From Peribolospora baueri (Eukaryota): a stretch of DNA of 64,000 nt. Where the stretch lies: assembly GCA_029717555.1 (NCBI GenBank), contig JAMDHS010000025.1, positions 1 to 64,000 on the forward strand, written 5' to 3'. A model generated the notes under the pieces. It saw only the letters and a program-made list of their open reading frames with translations, was not told the DNA's origin and ran no database searches. Shown here one piece after another: positions 41,736-51,800 of the stretch. Each line of letters starts with the position of its first letter. Position 1 is the stretch's first letter. A program made the translations under genes and the position numbers.

Positions 41736-42757
41736 TCAATGCGCCTCCTCCTTCTCTGGAGCTGAACCAGTCTCGGTGACAGGCTCCCTCTTCGTCTTCT
41801 CGTCATCCGTACGCGACTTTGCATCCTCCGCCGCTGCCTCGTCCGCGTCCATGTCGTCGATTTCTGAGCGGATTGGGATGAATGGGGAAGGAAGTTAGAG
41901 GCGGAGGGGGGGAAGCCATAATCAACATGCGTGCATGGAGAAAGACCATTGACGTCGGCTCCTCCATCCTCCGTCCTTCCCTAGCCAGTCAACGGCGCCG
42001 TTGGAGAAAAGAACAGGGAGCCACTTACCCTCAGCATAGACGTCCGGATGCTCCCTGAAGCAATCCTGCATGGCCTTGAACTTTTCGATGCAGTCCACGC
42101 CCTTCGGCTCAGCCTCGGAGTAAACGAAGCAGCTGAACGCGGCCTTGAACTGCTCCCCGCAAGGCCCGTGAGCCATACCACCAAGACAAGGGCAGTCCCA
42201 GTTAATCGTGTCCGTCTCCGGGTCGTACGCCGATTGTTGCTGTGCGGGCGTCTCCGACCCGTCTCCACCGTCCTCTTGCGAGTCAGGGCCCTTGGGCTTT
42301 CCGTCAGGTGTTGCCTTCTTCTCCGCCGCCTTGTTCACCTTCGACGACGGGGCATCTGGAGAGACTCCTACAAGCGTAAAAAAAGGGCCGAGCCGGATAA
42401 GGCAGGCCATGCCATGTCAAGCCATGTCAGACGGGCCTCCGGACTACCCCTTCGCGCGAAGAAAGACAAGTAGAGTGCGGCGCATTCCCGCTCACTCTTT
42501 TCGTCGTCAAGCCGTACGCTATCCCTACTCAACCCCGACAGTGTAAGAGCGGCTGCTACACCAAAGCCGCTGAGCCATGCTAGCCGGGTCGTCGTCGAAG
42601 GGGAGGGGGACGACGATGGTCCGGTAGAAGAGGAAGCGTAGGTGCGGGCACGGGCACGCAAAGAGACGGACGCCGCTCGCGGGCAGCAAAATGTTGGGCC
42701 CGCAGTGGTGACGGCCGTCCGGACTGCAGAGCGAGCGAGTCGAGGACTAAAAGACAT
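41736..42757 (-). CDS. MIA40: Mitochondrial intermembrane space import and assembly protein 40
   Basis: [57 protein letters not shown] (CPC plus twin CX9C), an Arg-rich presequence and a hydrophobic anchor. Three exons, stop TGA at 41736. Confidence 0.96.
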
Positions 42758-43020
42758 GACGGGCGGGAGATGGAGGTGAGGATGAAAGCGATGGTGATGG
42801 CGCATGCCGAGCTCGAGCTTCGAATCTTCTCTCGGCCGAGACGGTGATCAACCTTCCGATCGCCTATTGCCGCGCACTTAGACGGCGATAAGACGGGTCG
42901 ATCATATCGGCGGTTCGGTTGTACGGTCTAGCCGCTCGCCGAGAGTGGGGGTGAGGGGCCGAGGGAGGCTTCGAGGGGGCCCTCCTTTCTTGTCTCCCAA
43001 TCTCATCATCCTCCACCCAC

Positions 43021-46000
43021 ATGGCTTCGTCACAGAAGATCAAGATCGCCATTGGTGAGCTGGATCAGCCAGCTGAGAGAGAGAAAGAGAAGGGTTTGAG
43101 AAGCACGGTAACTGCACAGATCGCACGCTCATCTTGTTCTCCGTCGTGTGACCCTCCCTTATCTCTGTAGACCGCGGTGGGGTGAGTGTCCTCGCTAGTC
43201 ACCCCGCTGAATAGCTCTACTTCGAGGAGTATTCATCCCATGCCTTCCCTTCCTCCTCCCGTGCCTCTTCTCCACACAGACCTTCACCGACTGCCTTGGC
43301 ATCGTGCCAGGTCGGAAGGAAGGTGAGCGGCGAGACTTCCGCGTGACGACCTTGTGTCCAACTCCTCGGCCCCAACACGCCCAGGAGTGCTCCTTCTCAC
43401 TAAATCTCTCTCTACCATGGACCATAATTCATCTTTCTATTACCAGGCGACATCCTTGTCAAACTGCTCTCCCAAGATCCGAAGAACTACAAGGACGCAC
43501 CGCGAGAAGGCGTGCGACGCATCCTCGAGATTGCCAGGGGAACAAAGATTGCCAGGGAAGAGCAGATTCAGACGGACGATGTTGGTACGTATGTGCATGG
43601 ATGAGGTTTCGGTTTTGCTTCGGCAGCAGGACATCTCCACCTCTCGCTGATGTCGTCGCTATCTACCGCCTCCTTAACCTAGAGTGGATTCGGCTCGTGA
43701 GTCAGACAATCATCCGTGTGATCACTTGCGGTGCATGCTCACCTACAAGGCTTATGTCCTATATTGCAGAGCACGACGGTTGCCACGAATGCGCTACTGG
43801 AACGCAAGGGAGAGAAACACGCCTTGCTTATTACCAAGGGTTTCAAGGTGTGAATTAAGCACATCGCTCGTTGGTTACGTTACAAATAGACACCCCCAAT
43901 TGAGGCAGAGTGTGCTGACCGCTCACTTCTGTCCCTCTTTTCCGTTGATACCCGATCGTCTCTAGGACCTCGTCCAGATCGGTAACCAGTCCCGCCCCCG
44001 GATCTTCGACCTCGCGATCCGCAAACCGGACGTTCTCTACTCCACAGTGGTGGAAGTCGACGAGCGCGTCACACTCGTTGGCTACACGTCTGATCCCAAT
44101 GCCGAGGCAAACGCTGTTAAGTTTGATGAGGAAGGCAAGGTGTTGAGGAAGTACAAGGACGGAAAGGAAGAAGACGTGGACGGGGCGAGCGAGGAGTGGA
44201 AGGGGGAGATCATCAGGGGTTTGAGCGGAGAGGCGGTTCAGGTTTTGAAAAAGCCTGGTTAGTACAGGCCGTCGGGCGACTGAGCCTGCTTGCGTCAGAC
44301 AGTATAGGCTAGGGTGGAAGTCGATGACTGGTTGCGCTTCTGTCCCCGTCTCATGTCACTCTATTCAGATCTTACCCAGGTGAAGAAGGACTTGCAGAAG
44401 CTGTACGACGAGGATTACCGAACGGTGAGCTACTTCCTCTATCGACATACCTCATTCATGTCCTCCGGTTTAATCCGTTCTTACTCTTCACGTCCACCAC
44501 GGCACCGGGCGACTAGCTCGCCATAGTCTTCATCCACTCGTACACGTACCCAGAGCATGAGCTCCAAGTGGGAGCGCTGGCGAAAGAGGTCGGCTTCAAG
44601 CACGTATCCATCTCTTCGCAGCTTATGCCAATGATCAAGATGGTTCCTCGTGGAACTAGCACTACGGCTGATGCGTATTTGACGCCTGTCCTCAAGGCTT
44701 ACATCGATGGTGAGGCGCCTCTTTCTGCGCAAGCTGGCAGTCCCAAGAAAGGCATGTCGTGCGGCCATCGAGAGCGATACTTATTTCCGGATCCGCCTTA
44801 CCTCCCTCTCCCCTCTTTTAGGCTTTTTCGACGGTTTCGATCCTTCCCTCCGTTCTGGAAAAGCTGGCACGCGCGTCGAGTTCATGATGTCTGACGGGGG
44901 ACTGACCGAGGTTGATCGGTTCTCGGGCCTCAAGTCTATCATCTCTGGGTGAGCTGCCGTCTTACGTTTCCTTGCTACTCACGTTTCCCGTCCCCTTTCA
45001 CATATGCGACGAGTTTTTTCTAATGCCCTTTCTGGACCACCCTGTTCATTCAGTCCCGCCGGCGGCGTAGTCGGCTTTGCCTTGACTTCGTGGGATGAGA
45101 AGAACAAGACGCCGGTCATCGGTCTGGACATGGGAGGCACCTCCACTGACGTTTCACGATTCGATGGTCGTTACGAACACATCTTCGAGACCACCATCGC
45201 TGGCGTGTCTATCCAGGTACGTCTCAGTGCGAATCCTGTACGTGATTCTAAAGGCAGGAGTTGAGCATGGTATACGCGTTGTTCATCTACGCAGTCGCCT
45301 CAACTCGACCTCAACACCGTGGCGGCAGGCGGCGGCTCCCGGCTCTTCTTCCGCAACGGCCTCTTCAACGCTGGCCCTGAGTCTGCCGGAGCCCACCCAG
45401 GCCCCACATGTTATCGCAAAGGAGGGCCTCTGACGATCACTGACGCCAACTTGGTCCTCGGTCGACTCGTCCCGGAACACTTCCCTAAGATCTTCGGGCC
45501 GAACGAGAACGAGGGATTGGATCTTGAGGCGAGCAAGGGGGAGTTTTCAAAGTTGAGGGAGCAGATCAATCGCGAGACGGGGAAGGATCTGAGCTTGGAT
45601 GAGGTGGCTTGGGGGTGAGTTGAGAAGCACCCTTCTTTCTTTTCCGTCTACCACGTCCTACTCCCGAGCCAGAGAGCGTGACATCTGCCTTTCTTTTCGG
45701 TGCGATTGAATCCCGTCGCATCTTCTCGTCTGCCTCACAGGTTCATCAAAGTGGCCAACGAGACGATGTGCCGGCCGATCCGTACCTTGACCGAAGCACG
45801 CGGCTACTCTACGTCGAAGCACATTCTCGCCTCCTTCGGTGGCGCGGGCGGTCAGCATGCGTGTGCGATTGCTTCTACGCTCGGGATCCAGACGGTACTC
45901 GTGCACCGATACTCGTCCATCCTCTCCGCGTATGGCATGGCTTTGGCGGACAGGGTGAATGAGAGGCAGGAGCCTTCATCCGAAACGTGGGACGGGGAGA

Positions 46001-47072
46001 ACGGGGAGGCTCTGAAGAGGATGAGGAAGAGGATCGATATCCTGGAGAGAGAGGCTCGTGTAGTGCTCACCGGTCAGGGATTCTCGGAGGAAAGAGTCAA
46101 GAGCGAAATTTACCTGTAAGCGCTGACTTGCTGTCTCGAAGTACATGGTTCTTTGCGGGCGGGAACGCCGGAGGGGTCGACAACTGGTTGGGTAGTGCTG
46201 ACTTGATTCGCTCACATGCCCTTCCTGATGTGCCACAGGAATATGAGATACGAGGGCACGGATACTTCGCTGATGATCCTCAAGCCCGAATCCGACTGGG
46301 ATTTCGAGCGAGAGTTCGTCAATCAGTACAAGCAGGAGGTGGGTCCTTCGTGTGCTTTTGGGAGGCCGATGGCTCGTTCATGCTCACCCGACGGTCTTGC
46401 TGACCATGCTTTGCCTCCCCTGTTGTCACTTTCCTATCTTCTATCTCATTTGCTCGCTCTTTCTTGATCTAAGTTCGGCTTCCTCCTAACCGACAAGCGC
46501 ATCGTCATCGACGACGTGCGCGTACGAGCCATTGGAAAAACATTTGACAGCCTGGGCGAAAGCGTGTTCGAGGAAACCTCCAAGACCGACTTCAAGCCTA
46601 TTTCCTCGTCCGCGGGAGGAGAGAACGACCTGAAGAGCGAAGGGCAGAAAAGCGTGTATTTTGAAGGTACAGGGAGGGTCCAAACGCCCGTCTGGTCGAT
46701 TGCTCGGATGAAGAAGGGCGATCTCGTCGAAGGGTGAGTGAAATTCCCCGACCTGCCATTGAATCCACTTCATTGCCCTCGCTAGCAGGAGCGATTTCAA
46801 CGCGTGCTAAGCCCATTGGCTTCATCTTGTTTCCTGCTCGACCTCCTATTTTACACCTGCGCAGTCCCGCCATCCTCCTCGACGAGACGCAGACCATCGT
46901 CGTCGATCCCAAGTGTACGGCCAAGATCACGAGCAAGCACGTGTGGATTGACGTCCGCAAGTAAGTGGTCCGTCCGTCAAAGTGGGACTGGAAAGAGGGA
47001 ACGTGCAGGCGTCGTCATCGTTCTGACGACCGACGAGAGAATGCATCAAGGAAACGCTCGGAAGGGACGTAG
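43021..47072 (+). CDS. 5-oxoprolinase N-terminal (hydantoinase-A, ATP-binding) half only, multi-exon
   Basis: [102 protein letters not shown] and [14 protein letters not shown]. Ends either VWIDVRK* (unspliced, 46964) or VRKKRSEGT* (spliced, 47072). Confidence 0.9.
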
Positions 47073-47357
47073 ATTTTGGGCATCGGTCTCGTTTTGGCTT
47101 TCCATCTGCCTTCCCCTGCAATACCGATTGTTTTGCAAGTTGAACCGTCGTAGAATACCAGAATGCAATGCCATTCAGCCTGCTTCATCCCGAGGCCTGC
47201 CTGTTAGATCGGGGGTAGGGCAGCCCTGGAACAGACGAGTCAGTTCAAGGTACTATGAGGCACCTAACTTCCTCGCATTGAATGCTATCAACGTAGAGTA
47301 GGTTGAAAAAGACTAGACGGTATCCTTTCAGACATGGGAAGAATCCTCGGACTAGAA

Positions 47358-48575
47358 TTACACCGCTCCCGCTGTCATTGCCTCGCGCTTCTGTGCATCT
47401 GAAAACTCCTTGTTTCCCCGAATGAGCCCTTCACCGCTCGCCGACGTCGCCCCAGTTGGTGGAGGAGCACCGGAGAAGTATATCCTCCTGGCGACATCTT
47501 CCACCGTCCAGTCAAGCCCTGCAAGGAGGTTTTCGCCCGTCACTGCGCTGCACGGCTGGATGCGCCATGCGTGGGAGGTGATGCTGGGGAGAGCGAGGGC
47601 CTTCATACAACAAGAAGAAATGGCAGCGTGAACGATGGAACGGGAGCAGGAGGATCGGTACAGATATACGAAAAATCGGAAAAGAAGATAGGACGGCGAG
47701 CCAAAGCCGGATCGGCTCACCTCCTTGATCTCGTCCGGCGACATGGACCCGCGAATGTCCTGCTTGTTGGCAAAGACGAGTAAGGTAGCGCCGGCTAATC
47801 GCTGTCGTAAGGCCATCCATAAAGTCCATCCAAGCAAAGGGAAAAGCAAGTGAACAGCATCTTGAGCTTTCTAGCCCTTTCCCATGCGACGCCCTGTTAG
47901 TCCTCCAGCCCCAGTCCATAGACACACCTCCTCTGTCAACAAAGCTCCCAGCTCGTCCTTGCAGTCTTGCATGCGCATCCGATCACCCGAATCAACCACC
48001 CATACAATGGCATCTGTCTGCTCAAAATAATTTCGCCAGTAGGGACGGAGTGTGCGCTGGCCTCCTACGTCCCCTTGAGGGAGAAGGAGGAACGTTGAAC
48101 GTGGGGATGGGAATAAAGGACGAGGTGCCTTGAGCAACGAGTAGGACTAAAAGAAACTGGAATTTAGGACAAGTGGAAAGCTCCACAAAAACTCTCACAG
48201 ACGTTAAGAGTGTATCTGAACGCATGGGGAGCAAAGCCAACGGGGTAAAGAAGGTGGGCACGGGTTAGCGAAGCGTTCACGGTGGGCCAGTTCACAAGAT
48301 GAGCTCACCCGCGGTGCACAAATGTCTTGATGTTAAATCCAAGCGTGGGGCTAATAGTAGAAATGTCCTCGCCGTTGATTTTTTTTATGATCGTCGTCTT
48401 GCCAGCATTGTCGAGGCCTAGGAAGAGGATGCGCATTTCCTTTTCTTTCACTAATACGTAGGCAGGGCGAGACGAGGCGGAGAGGGGAGGTTAGCTTGGC
48501 TCAGTGGGCCGTCGGGGAGGGCACTCTCAACTCTCACTCACTCCGGTTCTTGCGAATGACGGTGAGAAGACCCAT
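47358..48575 (-). CDS. ARL2: ADP-ribosylation factor-like protein 2 (Arl2/Alp41/Cin4)
   Basis: [68 protein letters not shown] and CSAVTGENL. Confidence 0.95.
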
Positions 48576-48877
48576 TTTTTCCGTCCTCGTCTTGTTTCGC
48601 ACTTCTTTAGGGACGGTCGCCGCTTCTCTATCTACCTCGACGATCCAAATTGCAACGACGCCCTGCAGCTGATCGATGGTCACGTGAATGTTCCTTGGCT
48701 GCACCGTCGAGACCTTTCATACCAATATACCAATTCATCACATCATGGATGAGTTGTTCTCGCAATTCGATTAGCCTGACTTGCAAGACCACGAGCAGGA
48801 TGACCTTCCCGTTGGGCACTAGAGCCTCCTTCATTTTGAAGCATGTAAGATACAGAATGACAAGACAGGAGATTTTT

Positions 48878-51800
48878 TCACTCGTTCATCAACGCGCTAG
48901 CCTCGTTCCAGATCTTTCGAGCGTATGCGTCCTCTGGCAACGTGGAGAACACGTTCGCTTGGATGACCTCTCGATTCGTCGACAGAGGCACATTGAACTG
49001 CGAGAGATAAACGGCGCGAAGGGGAGAAAGAAGCGTTATGTCAAAAACAGGGACTCGCCATCGAGAAAAGGAGACAAGGCCGGGTGAGAGAGAGAGCATC
49101 ATAAGACCGACACTCACCCTTCGAACAAACTCCTTGTACCATCCCCGCTTCCACCACGCCTGCCACTCTTCCTCCTCTCCCACAGCCTCCTTCATATCCT
49201 CTTCAACGAGCCCGGCAAGACCGGCCATCACGGCAACGAGGCCCTTTCTCTGCTCGCCCCTGATCGTTTCAAGCTGAGTGCGCGCCTCGCTCGCTGTCGT
49301 CGTACCAGCCGCGGCCGCGGCAGCAGCAGCTTTGAGTGGGTTCTCAGGAAGGCTGGCTGGGAGAGAAGAAGGGAGTGCAGTCTCGTTGCTGCCCGTCGTC
49401 TCCTCGTCCTCCATTACCTCGTCGCCCGCCGCTGCCGCCGCAGCTTCGGCGGCTCGTTTGGCTTCACTCTCCTCGGCCTCGCGACGCTCGAGCGCCTCGA
49501 GCCTGTCCCTCACCTGGTCCACTCGGCCATTCATCTTCTCGACCGTCATCCTTAGCAGGTCCCACGCGCCAAATCGGCTCCAATCATGCTTGATCGGCTG
49601 CTCATTAGCGAGCTGGGTAGCGACTGGTGGGAGGAAGGGAGACGTAGGGATGGGAAGTAGGAAGTCGATGACGTCCGTGGGCTCGATGATGCGGTACTGC
49701 AACAGCTTGTCAATAACCATAAAGCACCATTGCTGCGAGGTGGACCAGAATCGCGCTACTCCGCTCAGGAATGCTTGACGATGAACCGGGGTCTCCGACA
49801 GGGAGCGTAGCAACGTGTGGTACCTAGAAGAAGTAGCGAAATAAAAGGCTGAGGTCCACTAAACTCTTAACTATGCTTTTGGCTAGGGCCTGAACTCACC
49901 TCTCGACTACGTTAAGGAAATGCGAAAAGCTCCTACTGCCGATCATCAAAACGGACTGGATGACCATGTCGCGGAGCAGCAACTCCGCTTCTGCCTCGTT
50001 TTCCACGACTGTGGTATCGTCTGGGCCCGGCTCGGTGGTCGGCAGGAGGGAAGTCTTCATGGCTTCGAGCTTGGTCGTCATAACGTCTACGGGGGTCTTG
50101 GACCGAAGCGCAGTCATAAGCTCGTCCACCGTGCTGTGGCAGGGATGGGCTGGAGGGAGATTTGCAACATCCTGCCATTAGGACGGCTTGCCTTGTTGTC
50201 ATGGACTTTTGCCAGTTCGACGACTTACCCGAATCTTCGTATGAGAAGCTAGGGCCCGCAGCCTCAGCAGGGAGAACGGGTCCCACAAGGCTATCGGGGA
50301 GAGTCTCCTTGATGCGATCGTAGTAGCTCAACCGGACCTCTAACTCGATAACGCGAGCTATGAAGGCGCGTTTAGGGTGACTAACAGGCAGCGAAAGGTC
50401 GGGCAGCCTAAACGTCAGGAAGTCAGAGATAGTCAGATTCTGGTCGATGGGAATTATTCACGTCGTCTAGAGGACGTGGTACAGCACAAGACGCACCATT
50501 CCTTCCAGCCCCAGGAAAAGTTGAAATTGCTGAGGTGAACGCTGAACCAGTCTGCCAAACGTCTTATGCACTCAACGTCCATGTTGTCCTTTCCGCTCGG
50601 ACCGCCGCGACCGAGGCTGGCATAAAGCCTGCGCACAGATTTTCCGAGCGATGGCGCAACGGTGGAGGGAGAAGCCTTGCAAATCTCGACAATCAGAGAG
50701 GTGTAGTAGAGTTCTTTCTGCGGGGCCATGGGAAGGAGCAACATAGTGGAGATAATTGTCTGCACGAAGCGAGGTATTAAAACGATCAATCAAAGTTTCA
50801 ATGTACCTTGCCTTCAGACAGTTGCGCCACTCACTTCGACGAGAAGATCTTCGAGCACCCATCCTGCTTTGGAGCCCTCTTCCGAATGTTTTTCAGCGCC
50901 GAAGCTGCCTCCTTGCTTGTTACGGAACGTCCCCACTTTGAGCCAGCGAGGTAGCTGGAACAGGATTTTGGCACATTCTTTGCGATTCACTTCAAAGATG
51001 TCGATAATGTCGCTGAGAATAGCCCGAAGGATGACGTTGTCCGGCGTGGCAATGCGAGCAAGAGACTACCACAAACGGGAAACGAGCGAGACAGGTAAGG
51101 AGATGCCCCTCCAAGTCGTGTCGCGAACCATAGGCGCTGGACTCACCTCGCTGAACCAACGGGCGGCCGTACCGACCCTCTTCGCCCCCAGCTCCGTTCG
51201 TCTCTTCCGACTGCGCCTCTGCGCGGCCCCGGGCCGCTCCTTCCCCGGAGCTACGGTACCCACATCTGCCAGCGCCTTCGCGACCGAGCCCCCTCCCAAG
51301 AAATCATCTTCCTCTTCGGGCGGAACGAGCACCTCGGGAAGATCGATAGGTTCGGGTAAGCCGGTCTCACCAGTGTCACCATCCGCGTTCGTAGAGGGCA
51401 GGGGTTCAAGGATCAAAGGAGCCAGGTCACTGGGACGAGGGATGAAAGTGGGACGGGCAAATCCGCTCGCGCGAAGGTCTCGCAAAGCCGCGACCAAAGT
51501 GTCGAAAGACTGTCCGCAAAAAAAGGAAATGCTGGTTAGAACTCGTTTATCTTACGAAGAGAGCGAGGCAGGTACGACTTACTTCTTCCGTCTGCGAACT
51601 GCCACCACTCGGGCTTGTCAGTTCCGTCTGTGCTTCCCTGCCCTGAGCATATGCCTCCACGGCTTGAACGAGCGCGTCCGTCTCGATGGGTGAATACACA
51701 TTGAGATCCTGACCGGCCAGTATCAGCGTCTCAATTATCATGACGGCAGTGCGATCGCCACGCGACAGAGTAACTCCAGGCTCCTCGAACACGGCGGCAA

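What the first reader, a model, noticed from the sequence alone, without database searches (positions are those of the whole stretch)
43021..47360. Apparently split eukaryotic 5-oxoprolinase: intact hydantoinase-A half that stops at the A/B domain boundary
Seen: I can splice all exons in frame from [19 protein letters not shown] to HVWIDVRK with no lesion. After the GTAAGT donor at 46961, the only plausible continuation (branch CTGAC, acceptor AAG at 47050) gives KKRSEGT* at 47072. ARL2 ends convergently at 47358, leaving no room for roughly 550 more residues. Established: eukaryotic OXP1/OPLAH is a single ~1290-aa fusion of hydantoinase A and B, where this position is followed by a DP(I/V)xLSxFxHRFMxIAEQMG motif. 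Separate A and B subunits are typical of prokaryotic hydantoinase/oxoprolinase relatives. Inference: gene fission into a two-subunit enzyme with the B half elsewhere in the genome, or a stand-alone ATP-binding A subunit. The clean frame argues against simple decay.
Basis: partly seen in the sequence, partly recalled or inferred. Interest (0 to 1): 0.8.

Follow-up and report, generated by a model that had tools for sequence, protein, structure and literature searches.

The report
Normal basidiomycete split oxoprolinase, A subunit
This is an intact fungal gene for the ATP-binding half of 5-oxoprolinase; the enzyme is encoded as two separate genes in many basidiomycete fungi, so the "split" is real but is that group's usual arrangement, not a peculiarity of this genome.

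Summary
A 16-exon gene at 43021-46964 (+) splices cleanly, all introns GT-AG, into a 767-aa hydantoinase-A-type protein. It ends at an in-frame TAA (46962-46964) at the A/B domain boundary. No hydantoinase-B sequence lies anywhere in the 64-kb window.

This is not an unusual break. The protein aligns end to end with annotated 765-800-aa A-only proteins of all three basidiomycete subphyla, and 29 of 29 aligned ones stop within about 10 residues of the same point. It keeps 156 of 157 columns that are invariant in 36 homologues. Stand-alone B-only proteins of 570-690 aa are annotated in many Ustilaginomycotina and Pucciniomycotina. In 18 species picked for having both, A ends and B begins at the same linker of the fused enzyme. 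A-only proteins form one clade (SH-aLRT 99) beside fused ascomycete enzymes.

Best reading: one ancient fission in the basidiomycete stem, with this gene as the A (ATP-binding) subunit of a two-subunit 5-oxoprolinase. The B gene of this organism could not be sought because no genome is held. Interest is low: a new member of an annotated kind. My paper searches found no description of the phylum-wide fission.

The parts
43021..46964 (+). Whole gene for the hydantoinase-A-type (ATP-binding) subunit of a split 5-oxoprolinase: 16 exons, 767 aa, start ATG at 43021, stop TAA at 46962-46964
   Evidence: Spliced model, all introns GT-AG. blastp matches: 63.6% to P0006 (residues 2-779 of 781), 62.5% to P0004 (2-783 of 786), 63.5% to P0054 (9-768 of 769), and 56% to residues 13-768 of fused P0086, which is 1372 aa
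43021..43322 (+). Exons 1-3 (43021-43054, 43171-43181, 43280-43322), including an 11-nt micro-exon; together they encode the first ASKHA phosphate motif DRGGTFTD (residues 12-19)
   Evidence: homologue alignments begin at model residue 4-7
43683..43696 (+). Exon 5, a 14-nt micro-exon needed to keep the frame between exons 4 and 6
   Evidence: AG|...|GTGAGT; the frame is restored only when this exon is included
43966..44709 (+). Exons 7-9, Hydant_A_N region (PF05378)
   Evidence: exon 7 scores 31.7 bits (cut-off 25.2, E 1.6e-7); exon 9 scores 23.2 bits (E 6.6e-5)
45054..46115 (+). Exons 11-13, Hydantoinase_A core (PF01968), holding the second DxGGTxxD motif (DMGGTSTD, residues 354-361) and GGAG (residues 523-526)
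   Evidence: 53.0, 109.6 and 88.1 bits against a cut-off of 22.9; motifs located
46239..46964 (+). Exons 14-16, the C-terminal region that corresponds to Hydant_A_C (PF19278) in homologues; ends ...HVWIDVRK followed by TAA
   Evidence: The single exons gave no Pfam hit, but they align to the C-terminal parts of homologues that carry PF19278
46961..46966 (+).
46965..47357 (.). 393-nt space between the stop codons of the two convergent genes; holds no hydantoinase-B coding relic
47358..48490 (-). It is not part of the enzyme and is listed only as the boundary
   Evidence: PF00025 on three exon pieces (E 8.8e-17, 1.3e-19, 5.9e-12). The ARL2 subfamily itself was not tested

Best explanation
The locus is an intact, expressed-type gene for the A (HyuA-like, ASKHA-fold, ATP-binding) subunit of 5-oxoprolinase in a basidiomycete fungus. 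In the stem of the Basidiomycota, the ancestral fused eukaryotic enzyme (A-B, about 1300 aa) was split once, in the short linker between the two domains, into two unlinked genes. One encodes an A protein of about 770 aa and the other a B protein of about 580-650 aa. The window gene is this organism's copy of the A gene and ends at its natural stop codon.

By analogy with the two-subunit bacterial members of the family, the A protein most likely binds and hydrolyses ATP to activate the lactam. It would work only in a complex with the separately encoded B protein, (alpha-beta)2-like, to open 5-oxoproline to glutamate in the gamma-glutamyl cycle.

Shown here: the gene's integrity, its domain content, its natural end, the same architecture across the phylum, B-only genes in relatives, and a single clade of A-only proteins.

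Inferred: that this organism has a B gene, that A and B assemble, and that the substrate is 5-oxoproline.
For: Gene integrity. 16 exons with 15 GT-AG introns give a 767-aa ORF. The protein keeps 156 of 157 columns that are invariant in 36 homologues (29 basidiomycete A-only, 7 fused), and the one change is L to I. Both DxGGTxxD motifs and GGAG are present. Pfam PF05378 and PF01968 score above their curated cut-offs on single exons.

Natural end. An in-frame TAA lies at 46962-46964. 29 of 29 aligned A-only homologues end 0-10 residues past the same last strand, whereas 7 of 7 fused proteins continue into a linker and the B domain.

Phylum-wide architecture. In the top 120 hits to exon 13, the named basidiomycete proteins come from Ustilaginomycotina, Pucciniomycotina and Agaricomycotina. 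They carry PF05378/PF01968/PF19278 but never PF02538, and most are 765-800 aa. The fused hits (1287-1388 aa) are ascomycetes and animals.

B-only genes. A 628-aa Tilletia maclaganii protein was the top stand-alone B representative. Searching with it listed PF02538-only proteins, nearly all 564-690 aa, named from Tilletia, Ustilago, Sporisorium, Moesziomyces, Malassezia, Meira, Exobasidium, Rhodotorula, Microbotryomycetes, Puccinia, Melampsora, Cronartium and others.

Same breakpoint. I chose 18 species because both halves were listed for them. In 16 of the 18, A aligns up to residue 768 of fused P0086; one runs to 777 and one annotation is truncated at 618. In all 18, B starts at residue 771-784. 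The window protein also ends at 768. The A and B genes sit on contigs of different lengths in most of these species.

Single origin. The 36 A-only rows, including the window protein, form one clade (SH-aLRT 99). That clade is sister to 5 fused ascomycete proteins inside a fungal clade (SH-aLRT 100), rooted on animals. Six named top fused representatives are from a zoopagomycete, an aphelid, insects, a stramenopile and a trypanosome, and none is a basidiomycete.

Two-subunit precedent. The closest solved relatives include caprolactamase CapA (6YRA) and the acetone and acetophenone carboxylase subunits. Passages read in PMC8453981 state that CapA matches the N-terminal ~730 aa of oxoprolinase, that CapB matches the C-terminal ~550 aa, and that the crystal shows an (alpha-beta)2 heterotetramer.
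Against: This organism's own B gene was not seen. No whole genome is held, and the window has none. Loss of B, with A kept for another role, is therefore not excluded.

There is no expression evidence for the window gene, and no enzymology for any basidiomycete A/B pair was found in the papers I searched.

The 18 species pairs were chosen because both halves appeared in my hit lists, so they show co-occurrence but not its frequency.

B-only proteins of Agaricomycotina were not among the 120 rows, which was ranked by similarity to a Tilletia query. The B half there is presumed, not shown.

No Tremellomycetes appeared in either list.

PF19278 was not detected on the window's single C-terminal exons.

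The tree is a quick search with SH-aLRT support only, and 14 of its 40 inner branches are unresolved.
Confidence: 0.85

Rival explanations
1. Stand-alone A protein. In this organism the B gene has been lost, and the A protein is kept for a different ATP-dependent role, or as a partner of an unrelated protein.
For: No B sequence lies in the 64-kb window, and the rest of the genome could not be searched. Other scan notes describe HyuA-type ATPases fused to unrelated partners in bacteria (leads only).
Against: The A protein keeps 156 of 157 columns shared with the fused enzymes, as expected if it still works within the same enzyme. B-only genes accompany A-only genes in at least 18 basidiomycete species. 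B-only proteins are 58-63% identical to an ascomycete B half, more than the A halves are (51-56%).
Confidence: 0.08
2. Recent lesion, decay or misassembly. A formerly fused OXP1 was truncated at about 47 kb in this genome or in this assembly.
For: The gene ends exactly at the A/B boundary, with a convergent gene 393 nt away.
Against: 29 of 29 orthologues from independent assemblies show the same end point. There is no frame defect, no N in the window, and no B relic downstream. The protein groups with A-only proteins, not with fused ones.
Confidence: 0.01
3. The pair is not a 5-oxoprolinase. The basidiomycete A/B pair could act on another lactam or hydantoin, as caprolactamase and N-methylhydantoinase do, and the 'oxoprolinase' label would be annotation transfer only.
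For: No basidiomycete enzyme has been assayed in the papers I searched. The family contains enzymes with other substrates.
Against: The A-only clade is the direct sister of fungal fused enzymes of the OXP1 type within an opisthokont tree. No fused basidiomycete copy that could serve as the true OXP1 appeared in the top 120 hits or among the 6 named fused representatives. Identity to the fused ascomycete enzyme is 56% for A and 58-63% for B.
Confidence: 0.06

Closest known systems
Annotated basidiomycete A-only proteins labelled '5-oxoprolinase' or 'related to 5-oxoprolinase', e.g. Kalmanozyma brasiliensis (P0006, 781 aa), Ustilago trichophora (P0004, 786 aa), Thelephora terrestris (P0054, 769 aa), Tilletiaria anomala (P0017, 805 aa)
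   Same: They share the domain set (PF05378, PF01968, PF19278 and no PF02538) and have similar lengths. The C-terminal end point is the same within a few residues, and the alignments run end to end at 61-67% identity.
   Different: Identity is only 61-67%. The window protein falls in none of the three sampled subphylum groups of the tree, so it comes from a lineage not represented in my sample.
Fused eukaryotic 5-oxoprolinase (yeast OXP1, human OPLAH, EC 3.5.2.9; represented here by ascomycete P0086 at 1372 aa and bee P0105 at 1287 aa)
   Same: The A part is orthologous: 56% identity over residues 13-768 of P0086 and 50% to P0105. The ATP motifs and 156 of 157 invariant columns are shared.
   Different: There is no B domain on the same polypeptide. 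The protein stops before the linker and the DPIxLSIFxHRFM segment.
Bacterial two-subunit ATP-dependent lactamases of the HyuA/HyuB family: caprolactamase CapAB of Pseudomonas jessenii (PDB 6YRA), OplAB, N-methylhydantoinase
   Same: They have separate A (ATP-binding, about 700 aa) and B (about 580 aa) polypeptides. CapAB forms an (alpha-beta)2 assembly (passages of PMC8453981). P0006, a close relative of the window protein, matches 6YRA chain A at E 1.6e-41.
   Different: The bacterial A and B genes are adjacent in operons, and this state may never have been fused. Here the split is secondary, derived from a fused eukaryotic gene, and the two genes are unlinked. The bacterial substrates also differ.

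Membership tests
Hydantoinase/oxoprolinase A (HyuA-type) proteins | Hydant_A_N domain (PF05378) | tested here: met
   exon 7 scores 31.7 bits against a curated cut-off of 25.2; exon 9 adds 23.2 bits
Hydantoinase/oxoprolinase A (HyuA-type) proteins | Hydantoinase_A core domain (PF01968) | tested here: met
   exons 11, 12 and 13 score 53.0, 109.6 and 88.1 bits against a cut-off of 22.9, covering profile positions 62-290 of 291
Hydantoinase/oxoprolinase A (HyuA-type) proteins | Hydant_A_C domain (PF19278) | tested here: inconclusive
   Exons 14-16 scanned singly gave no hit. The spliced protein could not be passed to the Pfam tool. It aligns over its whole C-terminus to homologues that carry PF19278
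Hydantoinase/oxoprolinase A (HyuA-type) proteins | Actin-like (ASKHA) ATP-binding motifs: two DxGGTxxD motifs and a GGxG adenosine motif. The motif definitions are recalled from Kumar & Bachhawat 2010, which I did not read | tested here: met
   DRGGTFTD at residues 12-19, DMGGTSTD at 354-361, GGAG at 523-526
Fused eukaryotic 5-oxoprolinase (OXP1/OPLAH type) | A and B (PF02538) domains on one polypeptide of about 1300 aa | tested here: not met
   The ORF ends at the TAA at 46962. No B sequence is in the window
Fused eukaryotic 5-oxoprolinase (OXP1/OPLAH type) | Orthology of the A part to OXP1-type enzymes | tested here: met
   the basidiomycete A-only clade (SH-aLRT 99) is sister to fused ascomycete enzymes within a fungal clade (SH-aLRT 100). 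Identity to P0086 is 56%
Fused eukaryotic 5-oxoprolinase (OXP1/OPLAH type) | ATP-dependent hydrolysis of 5-oxoproline to glutamate | not testable with these tools
   Needs an enzyme assay
Basidiomycete split 5-oxoprolinase, A subunit | A-only protein of about 765-800 aa that ends at the A/B linker (residue 768 of P0086) | tested here: met
   the model is 767 aa and ends at P0086 residue 768, as do 16 of the 18 compared A proteins
Basidiomycete split 5-oxoprolinase, A subunit | A separately encoded B-only gene in the same genome | not testable with these tools
   No whole genome is held for this window. A B-only gene is present in at least 18 related species
Basidiomycete split 5-oxoprolinase, A subunit | Placement inside the basidiomycete A-only clade | tested here: met
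   inside the 36-row clade with SH-aLRT 99; the position within that clade is unresolved

The most novel reading that the evidence does not exclude
The A/B fission of 5-oxoprolinase may be a single, undescribed synapomorphy of the whole phylum Basidiomycota. It would be a secondary return of a fused eukaryotic enzyme to the prokaryote-like two-subunit state, with unlinked genes, kept for several hundred million years. The window protein would then be a deep, otherwise unsampled basidiomycete branch that already carries the split. This would give a clean rare-genomic-change marker for the phylum, and a natural experiment on why the fusion is dispensable.
Probability: 0.6. Interest if true: 0.35.

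Novelty: new member of a known kind. Interest (0 to 1): 0.2.

Why it matters
For annotation: an A-only '5-oxoprolinase' of about 770 aa in a basidiomycete is complete. It should not be flagged as truncated, merged with a neighbour, or treated as a pseudogene, and its partner should be sought as a separate PF02538-only gene.

For evolution: the split appears to mark the whole phylum and to have happened once, at the domain linker. None of my seven paper searches turned up a description of it (one search was badly posed), so a short comparative note could be worthwhile.

For enzymology: it shows that covalent linkage of A and B is not needed in eukaryotes, in line with the bacterial (alpha-beta)2 enzymes.

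None of this is surprising to a specialist who has looked at basidiomycete gene catalogues.

Tried and rejected
- Whole-genome search for the B half: not possible, because no genome is held for this window.
- RNA evidence for the 3' end: no RNA holder was listed for 46400-47500.
- Earlier scan notes: none for this genome. A word search returned only bacterial hydantoinase loci that do not bear on this case.
- A first automatic splice search with a narrow donor pattern gave a wrong model, and a first hand model had phase errors. Both were replaced by the model.
- Searching with an ascomycete B half for shorter proteins returned only B-only fragments at 69-86% identity. They come mostly from short metagenome contigs and are probably pieces of fused ascomycete genes, so this was uninformative about basidiomycetes. 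The useful route was the representative search, then a cluster look-up, then a search with the Tilletia protein.
- Paper searches: '5-oxoprolinase' + 'Basidiomycota' gave 5 papers, none about gene structure. In one of them, the Armillaria preprint, I read the single passage holding the term; it mentions only overexpression of 5-oxoprolinases. 'oxoprolinase' + 'hydantoinase B' + 'fungi' gave 3 papers. 'oxoprolinase' + 'gene fission' gave 0. 'hydantoinase' with gene fusions/fissions gave nothing relevant in the listing. 'oxoprolinase' + 'Ustilago' gave 6 papers, none relevant by title or abstract. A badly posed query for 'hydantoinase B' in Agaricomycetes returned unrelated papers.
- Complex prediction for A with B was not run. 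The pair exceeds the 1000-residue limit, the window supplies only A, and a split gene with solved homologues would pass by likeness alone.
- Structure prediction was not run, because sequence evidence was already decisive.


Full report
**The sequence.** I read 42600-48600 and listed its frames. Guided by tblastn of three homologues against the window, I built a gene model of 16 exons from 43021 to 46964 on the + strand.
- All 15 introns are GT-AG and 73-135 nt long.
- Two exons are micro-exons, of 11 nt (43171-43181) and 14 nt (43683-43696).
- The CDS is 2304 nt and gives 767 residues, from [19 protein letters not shown] to HVWIDVRK.
- The last codons read CGC AAG TAA, so the frame closes at an in-frame TAA at 46962-46964.
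That intron is not needed.
- The next gene is convergent. It is an Arf-family GTPase (PF00025 on three exon pieces) with its stop at 47358-47360, leaving 393 nt between the two stops.
- The window has no N.

**Is a B half nearby?** No.
- tblastn with a fused ascomycete protein (P0086, 1372 aa) and a fused bee protein (P0105, 1287 aa) matched the window only over their A parts, up to residue 782, at E<=1e-3.
- I built a profile HMM from 40 basidiomycete B-only proteins and searched it with filters off against all 1556 six-frame ORF pieces of at least 25 aa. The best E-value was 0.81.
- As a control, 10 of 10 60-aa pieces of the B half of P0086 scored between 5.8e-34 and 2.7e-9.

**What the protein is.** Single exons reach the curated Pfam cut-offs for Hydant_A_N (31.7 bits against 25.2) and Hydantoinase_A (53.0, 109.6 and 88.1 bits against 22.9). 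The three C-terminal exons gave no Pfam hit on their own. The spliced protein aligns end to end with annotated proteins that carry PF05378, PF01968 and PF19278:
- 63.6% identity to Kalmanozyma P0006 (residues 2-779 of 781)
- 62.5% to Ustilago trichophora P0004 (2-783 of 786)
- 63.5% to Thelephora P0054 (9-768 of 769)
- 56% to residues 13-768 of the fused P0086

In an alignment with 29 basidiomycete A-only and 7 fused proteins, 157 columns are invariant in those 36 sequences. The window protein keeps 156 of them, and the exception is L to I. In leave-one-out counts the other sequences do no better. [16 protein letters not shown] and GGAG are present. This is a gene under normal constraint, not a decaying one.

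**The key result: the split is the norm in its phylum.** I searched exon 13 against longer proteins.
- Among the 120 best hits, every named basidiomycete protein lacks PF02538. Most are 765-800 aa. The extremes are 637-882 aa, and a few shorter entries look partial.
- These proteins come from Ustilaginomycotina (Ustilago, Kalmanozyma, Sporisorium, Tilletia, Malassezia, Exobasidium and others), Pucciniomycotina (Rhodotorula, Rhodosporidiobolus, Microbotryum, Leucosporidium, Atractiella and others) and Agaricomycotina (Thelephora, Fomitiporia, Sanghuangporus, Rhizoctonia, Calocera, Dacryopinax and others).
- The hits that carry PF02538 and are full length (1287-1388 aa) are ascomycetes and animals.
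- In the C-terminal alignment, 29 of 29 A-only proteins stop 0-10 residues after the last conserved strand. 7 of 7 fused proteins continue through a 12-15-residue linker into DPIMLSIFAHRFMAIAEQMG-type sequence.

The premise that eukaryotic 5-oxoprolinase is always one ~1290-aa chain therefore does not hold for Basidiomycota.

**The B half in relatives.**
- A first search with an ascomycete B half for shorter proteins returned only close ascomycete-like fragments.
- A search of the 50%-identity representatives with one such fragment (P0123) put a 628-aa stand-alone protein on top (P0241, 60% identity, aligned 30-624).
- The cluster look-up names it as a Tilletia maclaganii protein on a 662,639-base contig. 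That species' A-only protein (P0080) is on a 460,142-base contig.
- Searching with P0241 listed 120 PF02538-only proteins, nearly all 564-690 aa (one of 966 aa). The named ones come from many Ustilaginomycotina and Pucciniomycotina, including the rust fungi.

For 18 species in which both halves appeared in my lists, I aligned each half to fused P0086.
- The A proteins end at residue 768 in 16 of 18. One runs to 777, and one annotation is truncated at 618.
- The B proteins begin at residue 771-784 in 18 of 18.
- The window protein also ends at 768.
- The B halves are 58-63% identical to the ascomycete B domain, and the A halves 51-56%.

These 18 species were chosen because both halves were listed, so they show co-occurrence, not its rate. 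Agaricomycotina B-only proteins did not appear among the 120 rows, which were ranked by similarity to Tilletia.

**One event or several?** I built a quick maximum-likelihood tree (LG+G4, SH-aLRT support only) of 43 A sequences, with fused ones cut to their first 820 residues.
- All 36 A-only rows, including the window protein, fall in one clade (support 99).
- That clade is sister to 5 fused ascomycete proteins within a fungal clade (support 100), rooted on two animals.
- Inside the clade, the window protein joins none of the sampled groups (Ustilaginomycotina, 16 rows; Pucciniomycotina plus Agaricomycotina, 19 rows).
- Its best identity is 67%, to Tilletiaria.
- 14 of the 40 inner branches are unresolved.

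Six named top fused representatives belong to Dimargaris (a zoopagomycete fungus), an aphelid, two insects, a stramenopile and Trypanosoma cruzi, and none is a basidiomycete. The fused state is thus ancestral, and the simplest reading is one fission in the basidiomycete stem.

**How it most likely works.** The family has well-studied two-subunit members. Sequence search of solved structures with P0006 found a fused N-methylhydantoinase (7HK5, E 5.3e-50), the 696-aa chain A of 6YRA (E 1.6e-41), and the A-type subunits of acetophenone and acetone carboxylases. Passages of PMC8453981 (read by term search) state the following:
- CapA of caprolactamase matches the N-terminal ~730 aa of eukaryotic oxoprolinase, and CapB matches the C-terminal ~550 aa.
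- CapA is the expected ATP-binding subunit.
- The crystal (6YRA) is an (alpha-beta)2 heterotetramer with a CapB dimer core.

By analogy, the window protein would be the ATP-binding subunit and would act only together with a separately encoded B subunit. This step, and the substrate, are inferred. No basidiomycete enzyme has been assayed in the papers I could search.

**What could not be done.**
- No whole genome is held, so this organism's B gene is unseen.
- No RNA run was listed.
- The scan holds no earlier notes on this genome, and a word search gave only unrelated bacterial loci.

**Novelty and verdict.** The gene is a new, fairly divergent member of a protein kind that is already annotated in dozens of basidiomycete genomes. 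My paper searches (judged from listings and abstracts, plus one passage) found no description of the split. The library lacks most subscription journals, and I did not read the paper on yeast OXP1 domain structure (Kumar & Bachhawat 2010, cited in PMC8453981).

Confidence that this is an intact A-subunit gene of the usual basidiomycete split enzyme is 0.85. Within that, I put the presence of a working B partner in this genome at about 0.8. Interest is 0.2.

Noticed in passing
window 43171-43181 and 43683-43696 (+): The gene model has two micro-exons, of 11 nt and 14 nt. The first ATP-binding motif, DRGGTFTD, is spread over exons 1-3. Automatic gene callers could easily miss these exons and mis-start the protein.
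   Followed up: partly
window ~41925-42416 (-): The upstream divergent ORF has a CHCH domain (PF06747, E 4.7e-8) with CPC and CX9C-like cysteines, so it looks Mia40-like.
   Followed up: partly
window 47358-48580 (-): The convergent downstream gene is an Arf-family GTPase (PF00025 on three exon pieces).
   Followed up: partly
whole window; tree: The A-subunit protein branches inside the basidiomycete clade but outside the sampled Ustilaginomycotina, Pucciniomycotina and Agaricomycotina groups. Its best identity is only 67%, and no database protein is near-identical. The organism seems to be a basidiomycete lineage absent from the named hits. The window is 57.9% G+C and rich in short introns.
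   Followed up: partly
hit lists (not in the window): No Tremellomycetes (e.g. Cryptococcus) appear among the top 120 A-only or top 120 B-only hits. Whether that class has the split, a fused form or neither was not examined.
   Followed up: no
window 48878-49858 (-): A long open frame of 326 aa lies beyond the Arf gene, with alanine-rich and acidic stretches. It was not identified.
   Followed up: no
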